From sequence record NC_048799.1: DNA of 52,329 nucleotides; one strand, written 5' to 3'. Position 1 is the stretch's first letter, and each line of letters begins with the position of its first letter. The position numbers and the translations under genes are program-made. The notes below the pieces were generated by a model. The model searched no databases. It was given only the letters and a program-made list of their open reading frames with translations, and was not told the origin of the DNA. The DNA comes from Escherichia phage Mangalitsa. Shown here piece after piece: positions 1 through 37,146 of this stretch.

Positions 1-131
1 TTAAAATACGGTCCCTACCTCAACTTTTTCCTAGAGCCTATCGGCTTTCAATCAACACCAAGTTAGGCGCTTCGCTTATGAGTCAAGGTCAAAGGCAATC
101 AGAGCACGCTGTTGTAATGTGCTAGTCTCAC

Positions 132-31825: not shown

Positions 31826-32833
31826 ATGCCAAAGATGATTAAACTGGCCGACGGTTCTGAATTCGAACTGAACGACGCCATCGCTCGTATTCAGGATTCT
31901 GGTACTGTTCCCCTGAACGACGACGACGCAGTATTCTTCCAACGTCAGCTTGAGTTCATTGAAGCTCAAACTTACGACACCCTGTATCCTGAACTGGAAG
32001 CTCGTGCAGCTTTCGGCGTAGATACGACTGGCGGCCCTGGTGTTAACACCCTGACCTACCGTTCATACAACCATGTTGGTAAAGCACAGGTAATCAACGC
32101 TCGTGCAACCGACCTGCCGAAGTCCAGCATTTCTGGTAAAGAATACAGCGTAACTGTTAAGTCAGTTGGTACTGCATTCGACTACGACATTGACGAAGTT
32201 GCCGCTGCTGCTGTAACTGGTCTGCCGCTGGAAACTCGTAAAGCAAACGCTGCTATCCGTGGTTACGAGCAGTATGTAAACTCTGCTGCATGGTACGGCG
32301 ATGCTGCTAACGGCTTCGTTGGCTTCTTCGAAAACCCAGACATCACCAAAGCAACTGTTGCTCAGGGTGCTGGCGGTTCTACCGAGTGGGCCGAGAAGAC
32401 TCCGACCGAAGTTATTGCTGACCTGACTGCTGCTGTGTCTGCAATGTATGCTTCTACTCTGAAAATCATGCGCCCGGATGAAATCTGGATGCCTGTTGAG
32501 CATGAGCAGTACATCTTCAACACTGCACGTTCTGAGCAGTCTGACAAGACGATTGGTCAGTTCTTCATTGACAACAACCAGTTCATCAACTCCCGCGATA
32601 AAATCAAGGGTCTGAACGCAATCAAAGGTCACGGCGATGCTGGTTCTGATTGCTTCGTTGTTGTTTGCCGCAATGCAATGGGCAACCGTACTTTCCGTCT
32701 GCGTGAACCTCTGCCGCTGACCTGGCAACCGGTACAGCTTCATGGCCTGATTTATGAAGTACCTGGCCGTGGTCGTTTCGCTGGCTTCCAGACTATGTAT
32801 CCGGCTGCAATCAGCATCAACTCCGGCATCTAA
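31826..32833 (+). CDS. major capsid protein (lambda gpE-like)
   Basis: 335 aa, highly expressed codon usage, GGSTEW segment as in lambda E as recalled; position after the decoration gene. Confidence 0.65.
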   Translation: MPKMIKLADGSEFELNDAIARIQDSGTVPLNDDDAVFFQRQLEFIEAQTYDTLYPELEARAAFGVDTTGGPGVNTLTYRSYNHVGKAQVINARATDLPKSSISGKEYSVTVKSVGTAFDYDIDEVAAAAVTGLPLETRKANAAIRGYEQYVNSAAWYGDAANGFVGFFENPDITKATVAQGAGGSTEWAEKTPTEVIADLTAAVSAMYASTLKIMRPDEIWMPVEHEQYIFNTARSEQSDKTIGQFFIDNNQFINSRDKIKGLNAIKGHGDAGSDCFVVVCRNAMGNRTFRLREPLPLTWQPVQLHGLIYEVPGRGRFAGFQTMYPAAISINSGI

Positions 32834-32881: not shown

Positions 32882-33322
32882 ATGCAGATTAAGAACAACG
32901 AAACACGTAACCTTCAATTCTTCTTCTACAAGAAAGACAAGGCTGGCCAGGCTGTGTTGGATTTTGTACACATTCCTGGTGGCGCTACTGTAGAACTGGA
33001 TGACTCAGTGTATAAAGCACTGACCTCTTCTGTAACTGAAGTTGAAGTAATGCGTGAAGAAGTAGTTCCGCTGGATGACTCCAACATCGGTGCTGATGTT
33101 AAGACTGGTAAAGAAGCTCTTGTAATCAAAGAGTATTACAACACTGGTGAAACTCGTAAAGTAAACCTGGTCCTCGAAGCAATCAAGAAAGGTACTCTTT
33201 CTATTGTTGAGCGTGTTAAAGTTGGTATGCCAGAAGTTGAGAAAGTTCTCGCTGCAAATGGTATTGCAACCAAAGACATGTCCGACGATGCTAAGCTGGC
33301 CCTCTACGATAAGTTGGCGTAA
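32882..33322 (+). CDS. hypothetical head/neck protein
   Basis: Position between capsid and tail genes. Confidence 0.45.
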   Translation: MQIKNNETRNLQFFFYKKDKAGQAVLDFVHIPGGATVELDDSVYKALTSSVTEVEVMREEVVPLDDSNIGADVKTGKEALVIKEYYNTGETRKVNLVLEAIKKGTLSIVERVKVGMPEVEKVLAANGIATKDMSDDAKLALYDKLA

Positions 33323-33712
33323 ATGATAACACTAACCGATTTGGTTAAGCGTTATCCGGCAATGGCTGACATGACCCAAGGCCGTTTTGATATCTTAGTT
33401 GAAGATGCAAAACTTCTAATGGGTACAATCGAATCGCGTTGGTGTGGGTTTTATGACCCTGCAATGGCATCACTGGTAGCGCATTGGTCTGCAACAATTG
33501 ATGACCTAATGCCTGGTGATGCTGCTATGCCAGCAATGCCTGTAAGTCGTACAGATGTTGACGATGTACAGGTAGAATTTAGCGACCGAATCATTTCAAC
33601 GATTCCGTATGTTGAAGCAGATTTCATGTCAACTGTCTACGGACAACGTTACATTCAATGGCGGCGTATGGCATTTGCTGGGCCGAGGGTTTCTCCTGGG
33701 TTCCAGTTTTGA
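33323..33712 (+). CDS. hypothetical head-tail joining protein
   Basis: Positional; 3' end overlaps the next ORF by 55 nt. Confidence 0.45.
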   Translation: MITLTDLVKRYPAMADMTQGRFDILVEDAKLLMGTIESRWCGFYDPAMASLVAHWSATIDDLMPGDAAMPAMPVSRTDVDDVQVEFSDRIISTIPYVEADFMSTVYGQRYIQWRRMAFAGPRVSPGFQF

Positions 33713-34071
33713 TTAACCAACGTCGAGCATTTAATCGCTACACAACAACACGAATGCTTCTCGAAGTTTATCAAGAGGGGCATTACGACGATAAGAATAA
33801 TTGGGTAGGAGATACTTTTGCACCTGCCAAACCAATCCGATGTACTCCCATACCTTACGGCGACCGTGATTCTGGGGTAAGTGGTCAAACATTGAAGGCC
33901 ACGGAAATTGGTGAACGCCAACCAGCATTCATGCAAGTACATTCCCGAACCGAAATGCCGATGAAGTCTGTGTTGATTATCTACGGCATACGCTACAAAG
34001 TTGTCTCAGTCTCTGACTATAATGCTGCTGGCTTCTATGAAGTAATTGCTGCCAAGGAGTTAGAGAAATGA
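33658..34071 (+). CDS. hypothetical head-tail joining protein
   Basis: Positional; start uncertain because of the long overlap. Confidence 0.4.
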   Translation: MAAYGICWAEGFSWVPVLINQRRAFNRYTTTRMLLEVYQEGHYDDKNNWVGDTFAPAKPIRCTPIPYGDRDSGVSGQTLKATEIGERQPAFMQVHSRTEMPMKSVLIIYGIRYKVVSVSDYNAAGFYEVIAAKELEK

Positions 34072-34580
34072 TTTATGACGACGACATTCAGGCAATGAAA
34101 GATATTGTGGATGTTTGCGTTGGCATTCCACGCTTCTCTTATGAGATGCAATTAAACGCACCTCGACCTGCTGATAACTATGCCGCAATTAAATGTGCGT
34201 CATCTGTTAATCCTGGCTTCGATGAAACTCGTATCGAAGTTCGTAATGGCGAGGAAGTATTTGTAACAAGAGGAATTCGAATACTGACTTTCTATATTCT
34301 CTTCTCGCGTCGCGGGAGTGAGTATGTGAAGTTTGATAATTCCTTCTTCCGTCCTGATGTACTGGCCGTGCTTAAGAGCAAAGGCTTTGCTGCACTGGAC
34401 AAAACCCAATTGAATCTTGCCTCGACAACACTTGAAACGAATTGGGAATTCCGTGAAGGAATCCAAATGAAATTTAATGTTCTTCGTGAAGATGTTATGC
34501 CAATCGGTACAATGTCTGATGCCAGTGTTGGCGGCATATTCTATGATGGCAACGAACCCATCCTCATAAAGGGAATCTAA
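34068..34580 (+). CDS. hypothetical tail completion protein
   Basis: Positional. Confidence 0.45.
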   Translation: MIYDDDIQAMKDIVDVCVGIPRFSYEMQLNAPRPADNYAAIKCASSVNPGFDETRIEVRNGEEVFVTRGIRILTFYILFSRRGSEYVKFDNSFFRPDVLAVLKSKGFAALDKTQLNLASTTLETNWEFREGIQMKFNVLREDVMPIGTMSDASVGGIFYDGNEPILIKGI

Positions 34581-36029
34581 ATGGCAATTCCAATTTCCGA
34601 CATCATCCAGGTAAACATCGCGGTTAGTCCGAACGCTGTTGCTGTGGAAGGTTTTGGTCCTTTACTCTTTCTCTCTAAAGAGTTTACACCGACTGCTGCT
34701 GAAGTAGTTCCTGTTCGTCAATATACGAGCATGGCTGCGGTGTCTGCTGATTTCCCGTCTGGTGAAATCTACAATGCAGCTTTGGCATGGTATTCTCAGA
34801 AACCTACTCCGAAGTATTTCTTGGTTGGTGCAATCACCCATGAAGACGTAGTTCCTGCAACTGCTGGTACTGTCACTGCTTCTACTGCTGCAAACCTGGA
34901 CGACATTAAAGATGTAACTTCTGGTGTTATCTCCATCAACATCAATGGCGTTGATATGCACACTGACGCTATCAACTTCTCTACCGTAACAGACTTCGCT
35001 GGTGCTGCTGCTACAATGACTGCTGCATTTGTAACTGCTAATATCCCGGCAACCGTCTCTCAGACCACTGGTGTGTTTAAAATCACTACCAACCTGACTG
35101 GTGACACTGCTGTTATCGGTGATGTTTACGGTACTGCTGCAAGTGCTTTCAAGCTGGATGCAAACTCAAGTCCTGTATTTGTCCAGGGCAACGATGAACA
35201 GTCTATCGGCTCTGACTTGTCTGCAATCCTGAACTCCACTTACAACTTCTTCTTCGTTGCGATTGACCGTGAGTATCGTGGTGGCGCTGCTGGTGATAAC
35301 CAGATGACTGTTGCTAAGTGGGCAGAAGCAAACGAGAAAGTATTTGGCTGGGCAGACTCTGACCCTCAGATTCTGGTTGTTGGTGCTGAATCTAGCTTCA
35401 AGCGTGCCAAAGAACAGAACCTCCAGCGTACTTTGCTGGTGTATGATGCGTCTGATAATGGCGACGAATATCCAGAAATCTCTATCCTGGGTCGTGCATC
35501 AACTGTCAACTTCAACGTTGCAAACTCTGCGCTTGTTCTGGCATTCAAACAAGGTCCGGCTATCAAGACTGCTGACCTGTCTCCGAACCAGCTTGCTGCT
35601 CTCGAACGTGTAAATGGTAACGCATTCATCAACGTTGGTGGGAACACTATGTTCTACAACGGCAAGATGGCTGACGGTACTTGGTTCGATACTGTTCAGG
35701 GTGTGTCTTGGTTAACCTCCAAGATTCGCGCGAACGTGTTCAACCTGTTCTACACTTCCACTACCAAGATTCCTTGGACGGACACTGGCGTTGCTCTGGT
35801 CAACCAGCAAGTAACTCTGGCACTGGAACTGGCTGTAACCAATGGCTTAATCGCTCCAGGTTATGACAACGAAGGAACCTTCTACGCAGATGGTTATAAA
35901 GTATTGTCTACCGACTTGGCACTGATGCAGTCGCAGAAAGGTGCTCGAATCTGGGAAGGTACTTCCTTCATTGCAATTGGCTCTGGCGCATTGCAGGGTG
36001 CAGTTATCTCCGGCAACTTCGTTCAGTAA
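34581..36029 (+). CDS. putative contractile tail sheath protein
   Basis: 482-aa ORF directly upstream of a 151-aa tube-sized ORF, chaperone pair and tape measure; highly expressed codon usage. Confidence 0.45.
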   Translation: MAIPISDIIQVNIAVSPNAVAVEGFGPLLFLSKEFTPTAAEVVPVRQYTSMAAVSADFPSGEIYNAALAWYSQKPTPKYFLVGAITHEDVVPATAGTVTASTAANLDDIKDVTSGVISININGVDMHTDAINFSTVTDFAGAAATMTAAFVTANIPATVSQTTGVFKITTNLTGDTAVIGDVYGTAASAFKLDANSSPVFVQGNDEQSIGSDLSAILNSTYNFFFVAIDREYRGGAAGDNQMTVAKWAEANEKVFGWADSDPQILVVGAESSFKRAKEQNLQRTLLVYDASDNGDEYPEISILGRASTVNFNVANSALVLAFKQGPAIKTADLSPNQLAALERVNGNAFINVGGNTMFYNGKMADGTWFDTVQGVSWLTSKIRANVFNLFYTSTTKIPWTDTGVALVNQQVTLALELAVTNGLIAPGYDNEGTFYADGYKVLSTDLALMQSQKGARIWEGTSFIAIGSGALQGAVISGNFVQ

Positions 36030-36511: not shown

Positions 36512-36970
36512 ATGGCTTGTGAATTGCTACAACGTGAATTCACAAACTCCAAAGGTGAACCAGTGCTAGTCGTTGTTCGACAACTGTCGGCTTCGGCTGC
36601 ACTGTCTCTTCACGCGGAGTTGGTAAGCAAGATTGGCTCACGGGTATTTCCATTCATCGAAGGCAAATATAACTTCGCTGATATTATCTACCTGATGCAG
36701 CAAGTGGAGCATACCGTATTCACAGAACTATTCAAACGTGTTATCAGTATGCAGTCGTCTAAAGATGGTCAAGAAATCAAACCAGCTTTATATGATATGC
36801 AATTCAACGGCGAATTAATGTTATCTTGCCACGTCTTTGCATTTGTTCTTGAAGCAAACTTCCTTGATTTTTTCAAGCAAGGGCTCGAAATCAACGAACA
36901 GAGACGGTTGGAGGCGGAGGAAGCATCCAAGCTGGCAGAGCAGAAGAATTCGAGTCCGGAGACAGTTTAG
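36512..36970 (+). CDS. tail assembly chaperone (G-like)
   Basis: Immediately upstream of the tape measure gene; contains the slippery site T-TTT-TTC near its 3' end. Confidence 0.55.
   Translation: MACELLQREFTNSKGEPVLVVVRQLSASAALSLHAELVSKIGSRVFPFIEGKYNFADIIYLMQQVEHTVFTELFKRVISMQSSKDGQEIKPALYDMQFNGELMLSCHVFAFVLEANFLDFFKQGLEINEQRRLEAEEASKLAEQKNSSPETV
36868..36874 (+). other. -1 programmed frameshift slippery heptamer T-TTT-TTC
   Basis: Canonical X-XXY-YYZ in the chaperone frame; the -1 frame opens exactly here (stop TGA at 36865..36867) and runs to 37146. Confidence 0.55.
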
Positions 36971-37146
36971 TATCCCTGTTCCCAGACATAAAGTATTTTC
37001 TGCATCGTCCTATTATTGAAGATAGTTCCCTCTGTACTCTTCGTGAGTTGCAAGATGGAACTTATTCTTTAATAGATTTGTTGTTATTCCATGACATTCT
37101 CGATTTGCGTAAGAAACTCGAACCAGTAGAAGAAGACAATGGCTAA
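36874..37146 (+). CDS. -1 frame C-terminal extension of the tail assembly chaperone (GT-like fusion)
   Basis: Open -1 frame of about 90 codons with no start codon of its own, ending at TAA overlapping the tape-measure ATG. Confidence 0.5.
   Translation, partial: QARARNQRTETVGGGGSIQAGRAEEFESGDSLVSLFPDIKYFLHRPIIEDSSLCTLRELQDGTYSLIDLLLFHDILDLRKKLEPVEEDNG

What the first reader, a model, noticed from the sequence alone, without database searches (positions are those of the whole stretch)
33323..34071. 55-nt overlap between two head-tail ORFs, with codon usage favouring the downstream frame
The last 18 codons of 33323..33712 use rare codons (CGG, AGG, GGG) while the overlapping start of 33658..34071 uses common ones. 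This suggests a mis-called stop or start, a sequencing frameshift, or translational coupling.
Basis: seen in the sequence. Interest (0 to 1): 0.25.

Follow-up and report, generated by a model that had tools for sequence, protein, structure and literature searches.

The report
Mis-called start, ordinary 4-base gene overlap
The 55-base overlap between two phage neck genes comes from taking the longest open reading frame; the second gene really starts 51 bases later at a TTG that overlaps the first gene's stop codon by four bases, which is ordinary for phage structural operons.

Summary
The window is a Chaseviridae (Carltongylesvirus-like) E. coli myophage. It is 98% identical to phage FXie-2024a and about 84% identical to phiEcoM-GJ1.

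What is confirmed:
- The two ORFs, 33323..33712 and 33658..34071, exist and overlap by 55 nt.
- The rare codons in the upstream tail are real (1st percentile of genuine in-frame windows).

Why the overlap is not biological:
- All 27 related loci examined, from about 11 Chaseviridae lineages, have a start codon at the position of window 33709: TTG in the E. coli/Yersinia clade and ATG in the other 14.
- Nine relatives carry an in-frame TAG inside the supposed 17-codon extension.
- Substitutions are mostly synonymous in the upstream frame before 33709 and mostly synonymous in the downstream frame after it.
- The upstream tail encodes the invariant C-terminal motif WRRMAFAGPRV of a DUF4054 head-to-tail adaptor.
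- Its rare AGG codon forms a GAGG Shine-Dalgarno-like motif. Relatives keep AGG where the next start abuts the stop, and use CGY where they have their own intergenic SD.

The real junction is TTGA (33709..33712). It links the adaptor gene (129 aa) to a 120-aa stopper/head-completion gene and is probably translationally coupled. There is no frameshift and no sequencing error. Published annotations of GJ1 and ST32 already use this start. The finding is ordinary and of low interest.

The parts
33323..33712 (+). The C-terminal motif WRRMAFAGPRV is followed by a clade-specific SPGFQF tail and a TGA stop at 33710..33712.
   Evidence: Pfam PF13262 scores 42.4 bits against a cut-off of 23.9, and phrog_302 matches at 2.5e-25. 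A profile of the family hits the Pam3 adaptor 8hdr at E=4.7e-5. The C-terminal motif is invariant in 14 aligned homologues.
33709..34071 (+). Stopper/head-completion gene with corrected boundaries: 120 aa, TTG start.
   Evidence: phrog_11887 covers residues 18-137 of the long ORF, which is profile positions 1-120 of 120. tblastn hits in all 60 listed records (of 107 matching) begin at residue 1 of the 120-aa form. A start codon sits at the homologous position in all 27 related loci. N-terminal residues M1, I2, A7, F8, T12 and T13 are invariant. The predicted fold matches neck/stopper proteins of Bas63, Pam3, Sf14, XM1 and Pa193.
33709..33712 (+). TTGA: the start codon TTG (33709..33711) overlaps the stop codon TGA (33710..33712). 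This is the real gene junction.
   Evidence: Read directly from the sequence. The same TTGA is present in 13 relatives of the E. coli/Yersinia clade. Other genera have ATGA, TAATG or a short gap carrying its own SD.
33658..33708 (+). The 17-codon 'extension' of the downstream ORF (ATG 33658 up to the TTG). It is not coding in this frame and arises from the longest-ORF rule.
   Evidence: Nine Carltongylesvirus relatives have a TAG in this frame 6 codons before the TTG. Against each relative, differing codons in this frame are mostly non-synonymous, whereas in the upstream frame they are mostly synonymous. No SD precedes ATG 33658.
33680..33689 (+). GGG CCG AGG G: rare codons for Gly-Pro-Arg of the adaptor motif, containing GAGGG (33685..33689). 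In relatives this is the embedded Shine-Dalgarno for the next gene. Here it lies 19 nt before the TTG, or 20 nt counted from the end of the AGG codon.
   Evidence: Codon table across 21 phages. AGG is used wherever the next start is 5-8 nt away (5 genera). CGY is used wherever an intergenic SD follows the stop (4 lineages).
34068..34580 (+). Next gene in the neck module: tail completion / neck terminator (170 aa). Its ATG overlaps the stopper gene's TGA as ATGA (34068..34071).
   Evidence: phrog_12771 matches at 6e-83, and PF23961 scores 57 bits. The overlap is read from the sequence.

Best explanation
Two adjacent neck genes of a Chaseviridae myophage are joined by an ordinary 4-nt start/stop overlap, TTGA at 33709..33712.
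- The upstream gene (33323..33712) encodes the DUF4054 head-to-tail adaptor and is correctly delimited.
- The downstream gene encodes a 120-aa stopper/head-completion protein. It starts at TTG 33709, not at ATG 33658.
- The 55-nt overlap appears only because the frame happens to stay open for 17 more codons back to an ATG in this lineage.
- The rare codons in the adaptor's tail are kept for two reasons. They encode an invariant C-terminal peptide (WRRMAFAGPRV), and the CCG-AGG-G stretch is the ancestral in-gene Shine-Dalgarno for the stopper gene.
- In the E. coli/Yersinia clade, 12 extra nucleotides between this motif and the start (5 extra adaptor codons) have moved the motif 19-20 nt from the start, and the start codon is the weak TTG.
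- Stopper translation here is therefore most likely driven by ribosomes that terminate on the adaptor gene and re-initiate at the overlapping TTG (translational coupling).

Shown: the gene boundaries, which frame is under selection, and the fold and family of both proteins. Inferred: the coupling mechanism and the SD role of GAGG.
For: - PHROG 11887 aligns to residues 18-137 only, covering the full profile 1-120 of 120.
- Annotated relatives GJ1, FXie-2024a, JL1, SKA49, Bp7, DE15, flopper, Pel53 and MLP1 all call a 120/121-aa gene with a 4-nt overlap. The ST32 paper lists ORF60 as 120 aa with a TTG start (PMC6266442).
- At the homologous position the start codon is ATG in 14 loci from the other lineages and TTG in the 13 other E. 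coli/Yersinia-clade loci.
- A TAG stop interrupts the extension in 9 relatives.
- Frame-switch test, counting differing codons against the window. In the 17 codons before the TTG, the upstream frame gives 2-4 synonymous versus 0-1 non-synonymous per comparison, and the downstream frame gives 0-1 versus 2-4. In codons 2-16 after the TTG, the downstream frame gives 48 synonymous versus 11 non-synonymous, against 6:59 and 0:62 in the other two frames.
- The adaptor C-terminus WRRMAFAGPRV is invariant down to 34% overall identity.
- The choice between AGG and CGY tracks the position of the SD.
- Four consecutive junctions of the module have no intergenic gap: TAA|ATG at 33320-33325, TTGA, ATGA at 34068, and stop|ATG at 34580/34581. 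No promoter-like or terminator-like site lies near the 33709 junction or between these four genes.
- Fold matches: the stopper model hits neck proteins of Bas63, Pam3, Sf14, XM1 and Pa193 of 110-132 aa at E from 4e-5 to 8e-4. The adaptor profile hits the Pam3 adaptor.
Against: - No direct protein evidence for the TTG start (N-terminal peptide or ribosome profiling) was found.
- Only a weak SD-like GGGU lies 7 nt before the TTG, and the best anti-SD duplex in the window involves the distal GAGGG. Independent initiation may therefore be poor, and coupling is inferred rather than shown.
- In the window/FXie and PO103-1/Yersinia lineages the ATG at -51 is not interrupted, so a minor long isoform cannot be formally excluded.
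- The AGG/CGY correlation rests on about 9 lineages without phylogenetic correction.
Confidence: 0.93

Rival explanations
1. The long form is real: the stopper protein starts at ATG 33658 (137 aa), and the two genes truly overlap by 55 nt in different frames.
For: The frame is open and begins with ATG in the window, FXie-2024a, PO103-1, PYps23T and MLP1. Two GenBank records, PO103-1 and PYps23T, annotate this long form. The codon usage of this frame is acceptable.
Against: A TAG interrupts the extension in 9 close relatives. The extension is absent from PHROG 11887 and from all other lineages. Codon differences in this frame are mostly non-synonymous. No SD precedes the ATG. An open -1 frame of this length occurs in 22% of windows by chance.
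Confidence: 0.03
2. The stopper gene starts further downstream, at ATG 33754 (105 aa), as annotated for phage SA91KD. This would leave a 41-nt intergenic gap and no overlap.
For: ATG is a stronger start codon than TTG. One GenBank record uses this start. The ATG is present in Carltongylesviruses.
Against: This ATG is absent in 4HA13, PM1, PO103-1, the Yersinia phages, Y2 and Myduc. Codons 2-16 after the TTG show 48 synonymous versus 11 non-synonymous differences in this frame. Residues I2, A7, F8, T12 and T13 are invariant across the family. No SD precedes 33754.
Confidence: 0.03
3. A sequencing indel or a programmed ribosomal frameshift joins the two ORFs into one adaptor-stopper fusion.
For: The downstream ORF is in the -1 frame relative to the upstream one and is open across the overlap in this lineage.
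Against: No X_XXY_YYZ slippery heptamer exists anywhere in the upstream gene. The two-gene layout is the same in all 27 related loci. In several lineages the genes are separated by a stop plus an intergenic SD. A TAG blocks the downstream frame in 9 relatives. Both proteins match separate single-domain neck proteins in solved phage necks.
Confidence: 0.01

Closest known systems
phiEcoM-GJ1 gp55/gp56 and ST32 ORF59/ORF60 (Carltongylesvirus, Chaseviridae)
   Same: Orthologous genes in the same order, with the same lengths (129 aa and 120 aa) and the same TTGA junction. The 129-aa protein is 95% identical and the 120-aa protein 88-89% identical.
   Different: In GJ1, ST32 and 7 other relatives a TAG closes the downstream frame 6 codons before the TTG, so no long ORF appears there. 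In the window, and in the near-identical FXie-2024a, the Ser codon is TCT instead of AGC and the frame stays open back to an ATG.
Translationally coupled overlapping gene pairs (NTGA start/stop overlaps) in bacterial and phage operons (from general knowledge, not tested here)
   Same: 4-nt overlap of start and stop, same strand, no intergenic signals near the junction, and a weak start codon with a poor local SD.
   Different: Coupling itself has not been demonstrated for this pair. The start is TTG rather than the more usual ATG.
Head-to-tail adaptor and stopper (head-completion) proteins of solved myophage necks: Pam3 (8hdr), XM1 (7kln, 7kjk), E217 (8fvh), Pa193 (9b42), Bas63 (9mt4)
   Same: The adaptor profile hits the Pam3 adaptor at E=4.7e-5 and XM1 gp1 at 0.03. 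The stopper model matches Bas63, Pam3, Sf14, XM1 and Pa193 neck chains with TM 0.56-0.64. Gene order is capsid, adaptor, stopper, terminator, sheath.
   Different: Sequence identity is only 13-22%. The models are of moderate confidence (pLDDT 75 and 69). The adaptor fold search alone is weak (best E=0.1).

Membership tests
DUF4054 / head-to-tail adaptor (Pam3 adaptor-like) | Sequence match to the family model above the curated threshold | tested here: met
   PF13262 scores 42.4 bits against a cut-off of 23.9 over residues 9-114. phrog_302 matches at 2.5e-25.
DUF4054 / head-to-tail adaptor (Pam3 adaptor-like) | Homology to an adaptor seen in a solved phage neck | tested here: met
   The family profile hits the Pam3 adaptor protein 8hdr_a at E=4.7e-5 and XM1 gp1 at E=0.03. 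The fold search is weaker: E217 connector at E=0.1, TM 0.62.
DUF4054 / head-to-tail adaptor (Pam3 adaptor-like) | Forms a 12-mer ring bound under the portal | not testable with these tools
   Needs cryo-EM of the virion.
Stopper / head-completion protein (SPP1 gp16-like, XkdH-like beta-barrel) | Fold similarity to stopper or neck proteins of solved phages | tested here: met
   Foldseek against the PDB: Bas63 9mt4_E at 3.7e-5, Pam3 8hdr_A at 6e-5, Sf14 at 4e-4, XM1 7kjk at 7e-4, and also the T1 stopper, XkdH and SPP1 gp16, with TM 0.5-0.64. Model pLDDT is 75.
Stopper / head-completion protein (SPP1 gp16-like, XkdH-like beta-barrel) | Sequence match to a curated family | tested here: inconclusive
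   There is no Pfam hit. phrog_11887 'head protein' matches at 1e-63. The PDB profile search gives only E=0.77 to the XM1 head completion protein.
Stopper / head-completion protein (SPP1 gp16-like, XkdH-like beta-barrel) | Size of about 100-130 aa and a gene position between the adaptor and the tail terminator | tested here: met
   The protein is 120 aa from TTG 33709. Matched chains are 100-132 aa. Neighbouring genes are shown.
Translationally coupled overlapping gene pair | The start codon of the downstream gene overlaps or abuts the stop of the upstream gene on the same mRNA | tested here: met
   TTGA at 33709..33712. No promoter-like or terminator-like site lies near the junction or between the four neck genes.
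Translationally coupled overlapping gene pair | Downstream translation depends on translation of the upstream gene | not testable with these tools
   Needs reporter fusions with premature stops in the adaptor gene.
Programmed -1 ribosomal frameshift fusion | Slippery heptamer X_XXY_YYZ in the overlap, in the upstream frame | tested here: not met
   No such heptamer was found anywhere in 33323..33712.
Programmed -1 ribosomal frameshift fusion | The downstream frame is conserved open across the overlap in relatives | tested here: not met
   TAG is present in 9 relatives. Other lineages have a stop plus an intergenic SD.

The most novel reading that the evidence does not exclude
In the E. coli/Yersinia clade the ancestral in-gene SD (GAGGG) has been displaced to 19-20 nt from a weak TTG start, yet the rare GGG-CCG-AGG codons are still perfectly conserved in all 14 genomes. 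Two readings are not excluded. The motif may still act at a distance, for example through a small local hairpin (CUGG-GUU-CCAG, 33697..33707) that shortens the effective spacing, as described for T4 genes 38 and 25 (from my own knowledge). Alternatively, lineages with an open ATG at -51 may make a minor N-terminally extended stopper isoform.
Probability: 0.04. Interest if true: 0.3.

Novelty: already known. Interest (0 to 1): 0.06.

Why it matters
Its value is mainly for annotation.
- The start of this gene should be set to TTG 33709 (120 aa).
- The same gene carries three different start calls in GenBank relatives: 105, 120/121 and 138 aa.
- The case shows that local codon rarity can mislead frame assignment when an upstream gene's tail carries both a conserved peptide motif and the ribosome-binding site for the next gene.
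- It has no consequence for phage biology beyond the usual tight coupling of neck-protein synthesis.

Tried and rejected
- Single-sequence PDB searches with either protein found nothing. Only the family profiles and predicted folds gave assignments.
- RNA folding of 33665..33735 gave an MFE of -19.9 kcal/mol, with z=-1.1 against shuffles. This is not significant. The outer stem is broken by uncompensated changes in GJ1 and JL1, so I do not claim any structure (and reading).
- The anti-SD duplex scan found no convincing SD at normal spacing before the TTG.
- The first literature search for virion proteomics of GJ1-like phages returned mostly irrelevant papers. The PP101 paper had no proteomics hits. 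Only the ST32 ORF table was useful.
- The programmed-frameshift and sequencing-error readings were rejected.
- I did not use the large protein and metagenome searches, because the phage collection already gave decisive comparative data.

Full report
**What is there.** The window is a Chaseviridae myophage genome segment. A 1.9-kb stretch around the finding is 98.2% identical to Escherichia phage FXie-2024a. It is about 84% identical to phiEcoM-GJ1, ST32, flopper and other Carltongylesviruses. The genes around the finding form a head-neck-tail module:
- major capsid protein, 31826..32833 (PF09950)
- a 146-aa protein of unknown function
- ORF 33323..33712 (DUF4054, phrog_302 'virion structural protein')
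- ORF 33658..34071 (phrog_11887 'head protein')
- 34068..34580 (neck terminator / tail completion, PF23961)
- tail sheath, 34581..36029

**Observation check.** The ORF coordinates and the 55-nt overlap (33658..33712) are correct. The codon claim is also numerically correct.
- I used a codon table from 31 long ORFs of the window. The 17 upstream-frame codons inside the overlap contain CGG (1.1 per thousand), AGG (2.1), GGG twice (5.4) and CCG.
- They score at the 1st percentile of genuine in-frame windows.
- The downstream frame scores at the 16th-22nd percentile.
- That downstream score is typical of stop-free off-frame windows (70th-88th percentile).
- 22% of 17-codon -1-frame windows in this genome are stop-free, so an open extension is not surprising.

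**Where the downstream gene really starts.**
- The PHROG 11887 profile (120 positions) aligns end to end with residues 18-137 of the 137-aa ORF. Residue 18 is the TTG at 33709.
- A tblastn search with the 120-aa form found 107 phage records. In all 60 listed, down to about 42% identity in Aeromonas, Shewanella and Vibrio phages, the alignment begins at query residue 1.
- I fetched 27 related loci from about 11 Chaseviridae lineages. Every one has a start codon at the homologous position: TTG in the 13 E. coli/Yersinia-clade loci and ATG in the other 14. It is followed by a conserved I-N/S-x-x-x-A-F-x-x-x-T-T N-terminus.
- In nine Carltongylesviruses (GJ1, JL1, SKA49, SA91KD, Bp7, DE15, flopper, TH53, Pel53) the downstream frame has a TAG six codons before the TTG, so the extension cannot be translated there. 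The same nucleotide changes are a synonymous Ser codon swap (TCT to AGC/AGT) in the upstream frame.

**Frame-switch test** (counting differing codons against the window).

| Region | Frame | Synonymous | Non-synonymous |
|---|---|---|---|
| 17 codons before the TTG, per comparison | upstream | 2-4 | 0-1 |
| 17 codons before the TTG, per comparison | downstream | 0-1 | 2-4 (plus the stop) |
| Codons 2-16 after the TTG, summed | downstream | 48 | 11 |
| Codons 2-16 after the TTG, summed | other two frames | 6 and 0 | 59 and 62 |

Selection therefore switches frame exactly at the TTGA junction. This excludes both ATG 33658 and the internal ATG 33754 as the start. Most GenBank relatives annotate the 120-aa TTG form with a 4-nt overlap. 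The ST32 paper tabulates it the same way (PMC6266442). PO103-1 and PYps23T carry the long call, and SA91KD carries the short one.

**Why the upstream tail uses rare codons.** The overlap encodes W-R-R-M-A-F-A-G-P-R-V. This is the most conserved stretch of the adaptor and is essentially invariant down to 34% overall identity. The codon choice for its last Arg follows the layout of the junction.
- In five genera the next start lies 5-8 nt beyond this codon: Sabourvirus, Loessnervirus, Myducvirus, Yushanvirus and Faunusvirus. There the codon is AGG, giving CCG-AGG, a GAGG Shine-Dalgarno at normal spacing.
- In four lineages the adaptor stop is followed by its own intergenic SD (GAGGT or AGGAGGT): Suwonvirus PM1, the Pahsextavirus phages, ZPAH14/LA93P1 and VPs20. 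There the codon is CGC or CGT.
- A 5-versus-4 split of this kind has a Fisher exact p of about 0.008. I calculated this by hand and it ignores phylogeny.

So the rare codons are best read as an invariant peptide motif with a ribosome-binding site for the next gene embedded in it. The SD role is an inference.

In the E. coli/Yersinia clade, which includes the window, the stretch between this motif and the start is 12 nt longer. The adaptor gains five residues (SPG[F/S]QF instead of a final A). GAGGG now lies 19 nt before the start, or 20 nt counted from the end of the AGG codon, and the start codon is TTG. Only a weak GGGU lies at 7 nt.

**Mechanism.**
- Shown: the gene boundaries, the 4-nt TTGA overlap, and the absence of promoter-like or terminator-like sites near the junction.
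- Also shown: four consecutive gap-free junctions in the module (TAA|ATG at 33320-33325, TTGA, ATGA at 34068, stop|ATG at 34580/34581).
- Inferred: the stopper gene is translated mainly by termination-reinitiation coupling to the adaptor gene. This suits two proteins that assemble as stacked rings in the neck.

**What the proteins are.**
- A profile of the adaptor family hits the Pam3 adaptor protein (8hdr, E=4.7e-5) and XM1 gp1 (E=0.03). Its AlphaFold model (pLDDT 69) gives weak matches to the E217 connector and the T1 adaptor.
- The 120-aa protein model (pLDDT 75) matches neck, stopper or head-completion chains of Bas63, Pam3, Sf14, XM1 and Pa193 at E from 4e-5 to 8e-4, with TM 0.56-0.64.
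- More weakly, it matches the T1 stopper, PBSX XkdH and SPP1 gp16. All of these are 100-132 aa, which is consistent with a 120-aa product.

**Rejected readings.**
- A sequencing frameshift is excluded. The two-gene layout with a start at the homologous position is present in all 27 related loci, and the identical 129-aa ORF with a TTGA junction in all 13 E. coli/Yersinia-clade genomes.
- A programmed -1 frameshift is not supported. There is no slippery heptamer in the adaptor gene, and relatives have in-frame stops.
- RNA folding of the junction is not significant (z=-1.1), and the outer stem is not maintained in GJ1 or JL1.

**Verdict.** The overlap as a biological feature is not. It is a longest-ORF artefact at an ordinary, previously annotated 4-nt coupled junction. 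Interest is low.

Noticed in passing
window 36512..37146: Likely tail-assembly-chaperone programmed -1 frameshift. ORF 36512..36970 contains the slippery heptamer T_TTT_TTC at 36868..36874. From there the -1 frame stays open for 92 codons to a stop at 37144..37146, just inside the start of the 1239-aa tape-measure ORF (37139).
   Followed up: partly
relatives: L006/L007 (PO103-1, PYps23T), L017 (SA91KD), versus L001 and others: GenBank relatives carry three different start calls for the same stopper gene. Most use 120/121 aa with a TTG start. PO103-1 and PYps23T use 138 aa with the 55-nt overlap. SA91KD uses 105 aa from an internal ATG. The long and short calls look wrong.
   Followed up: yes
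L022 (PP952070.1, 'Staphylococcus phage Pel53'): A phage recorded with the host Staphylococcus hyicus is about 83% identical at the DNA level to E. coli Carltongylesviruses and is classified in Chaseviridae. This is an odd host label for a family of Gammaproteobacteria phages.
   Followed up: no
whole window (52329 bases): The window length equals the record length of Escherichia virus TH53 (MT446419.1, 52329 bp). That record is only about 84% identical in the region compared, with coordinates offset by about 330 bases. This is probably a coincidence. The window may be a complete genome of a FXie-2024a-like phage.
   Followed up: no
window 33685..33708 and homologous positions in L001, L003, L006, L007, L015-L022: Compared with the other genera, the E. 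coli/Yersinia clade has 12 extra nucleotides between the embedded GAGG motif and the stopper start, together with a switch from ATG to TTG. The rare GGG-CCG-AGG codons nevertheless remain identical in all 14 genomes of the clade.
   Followed up: partly
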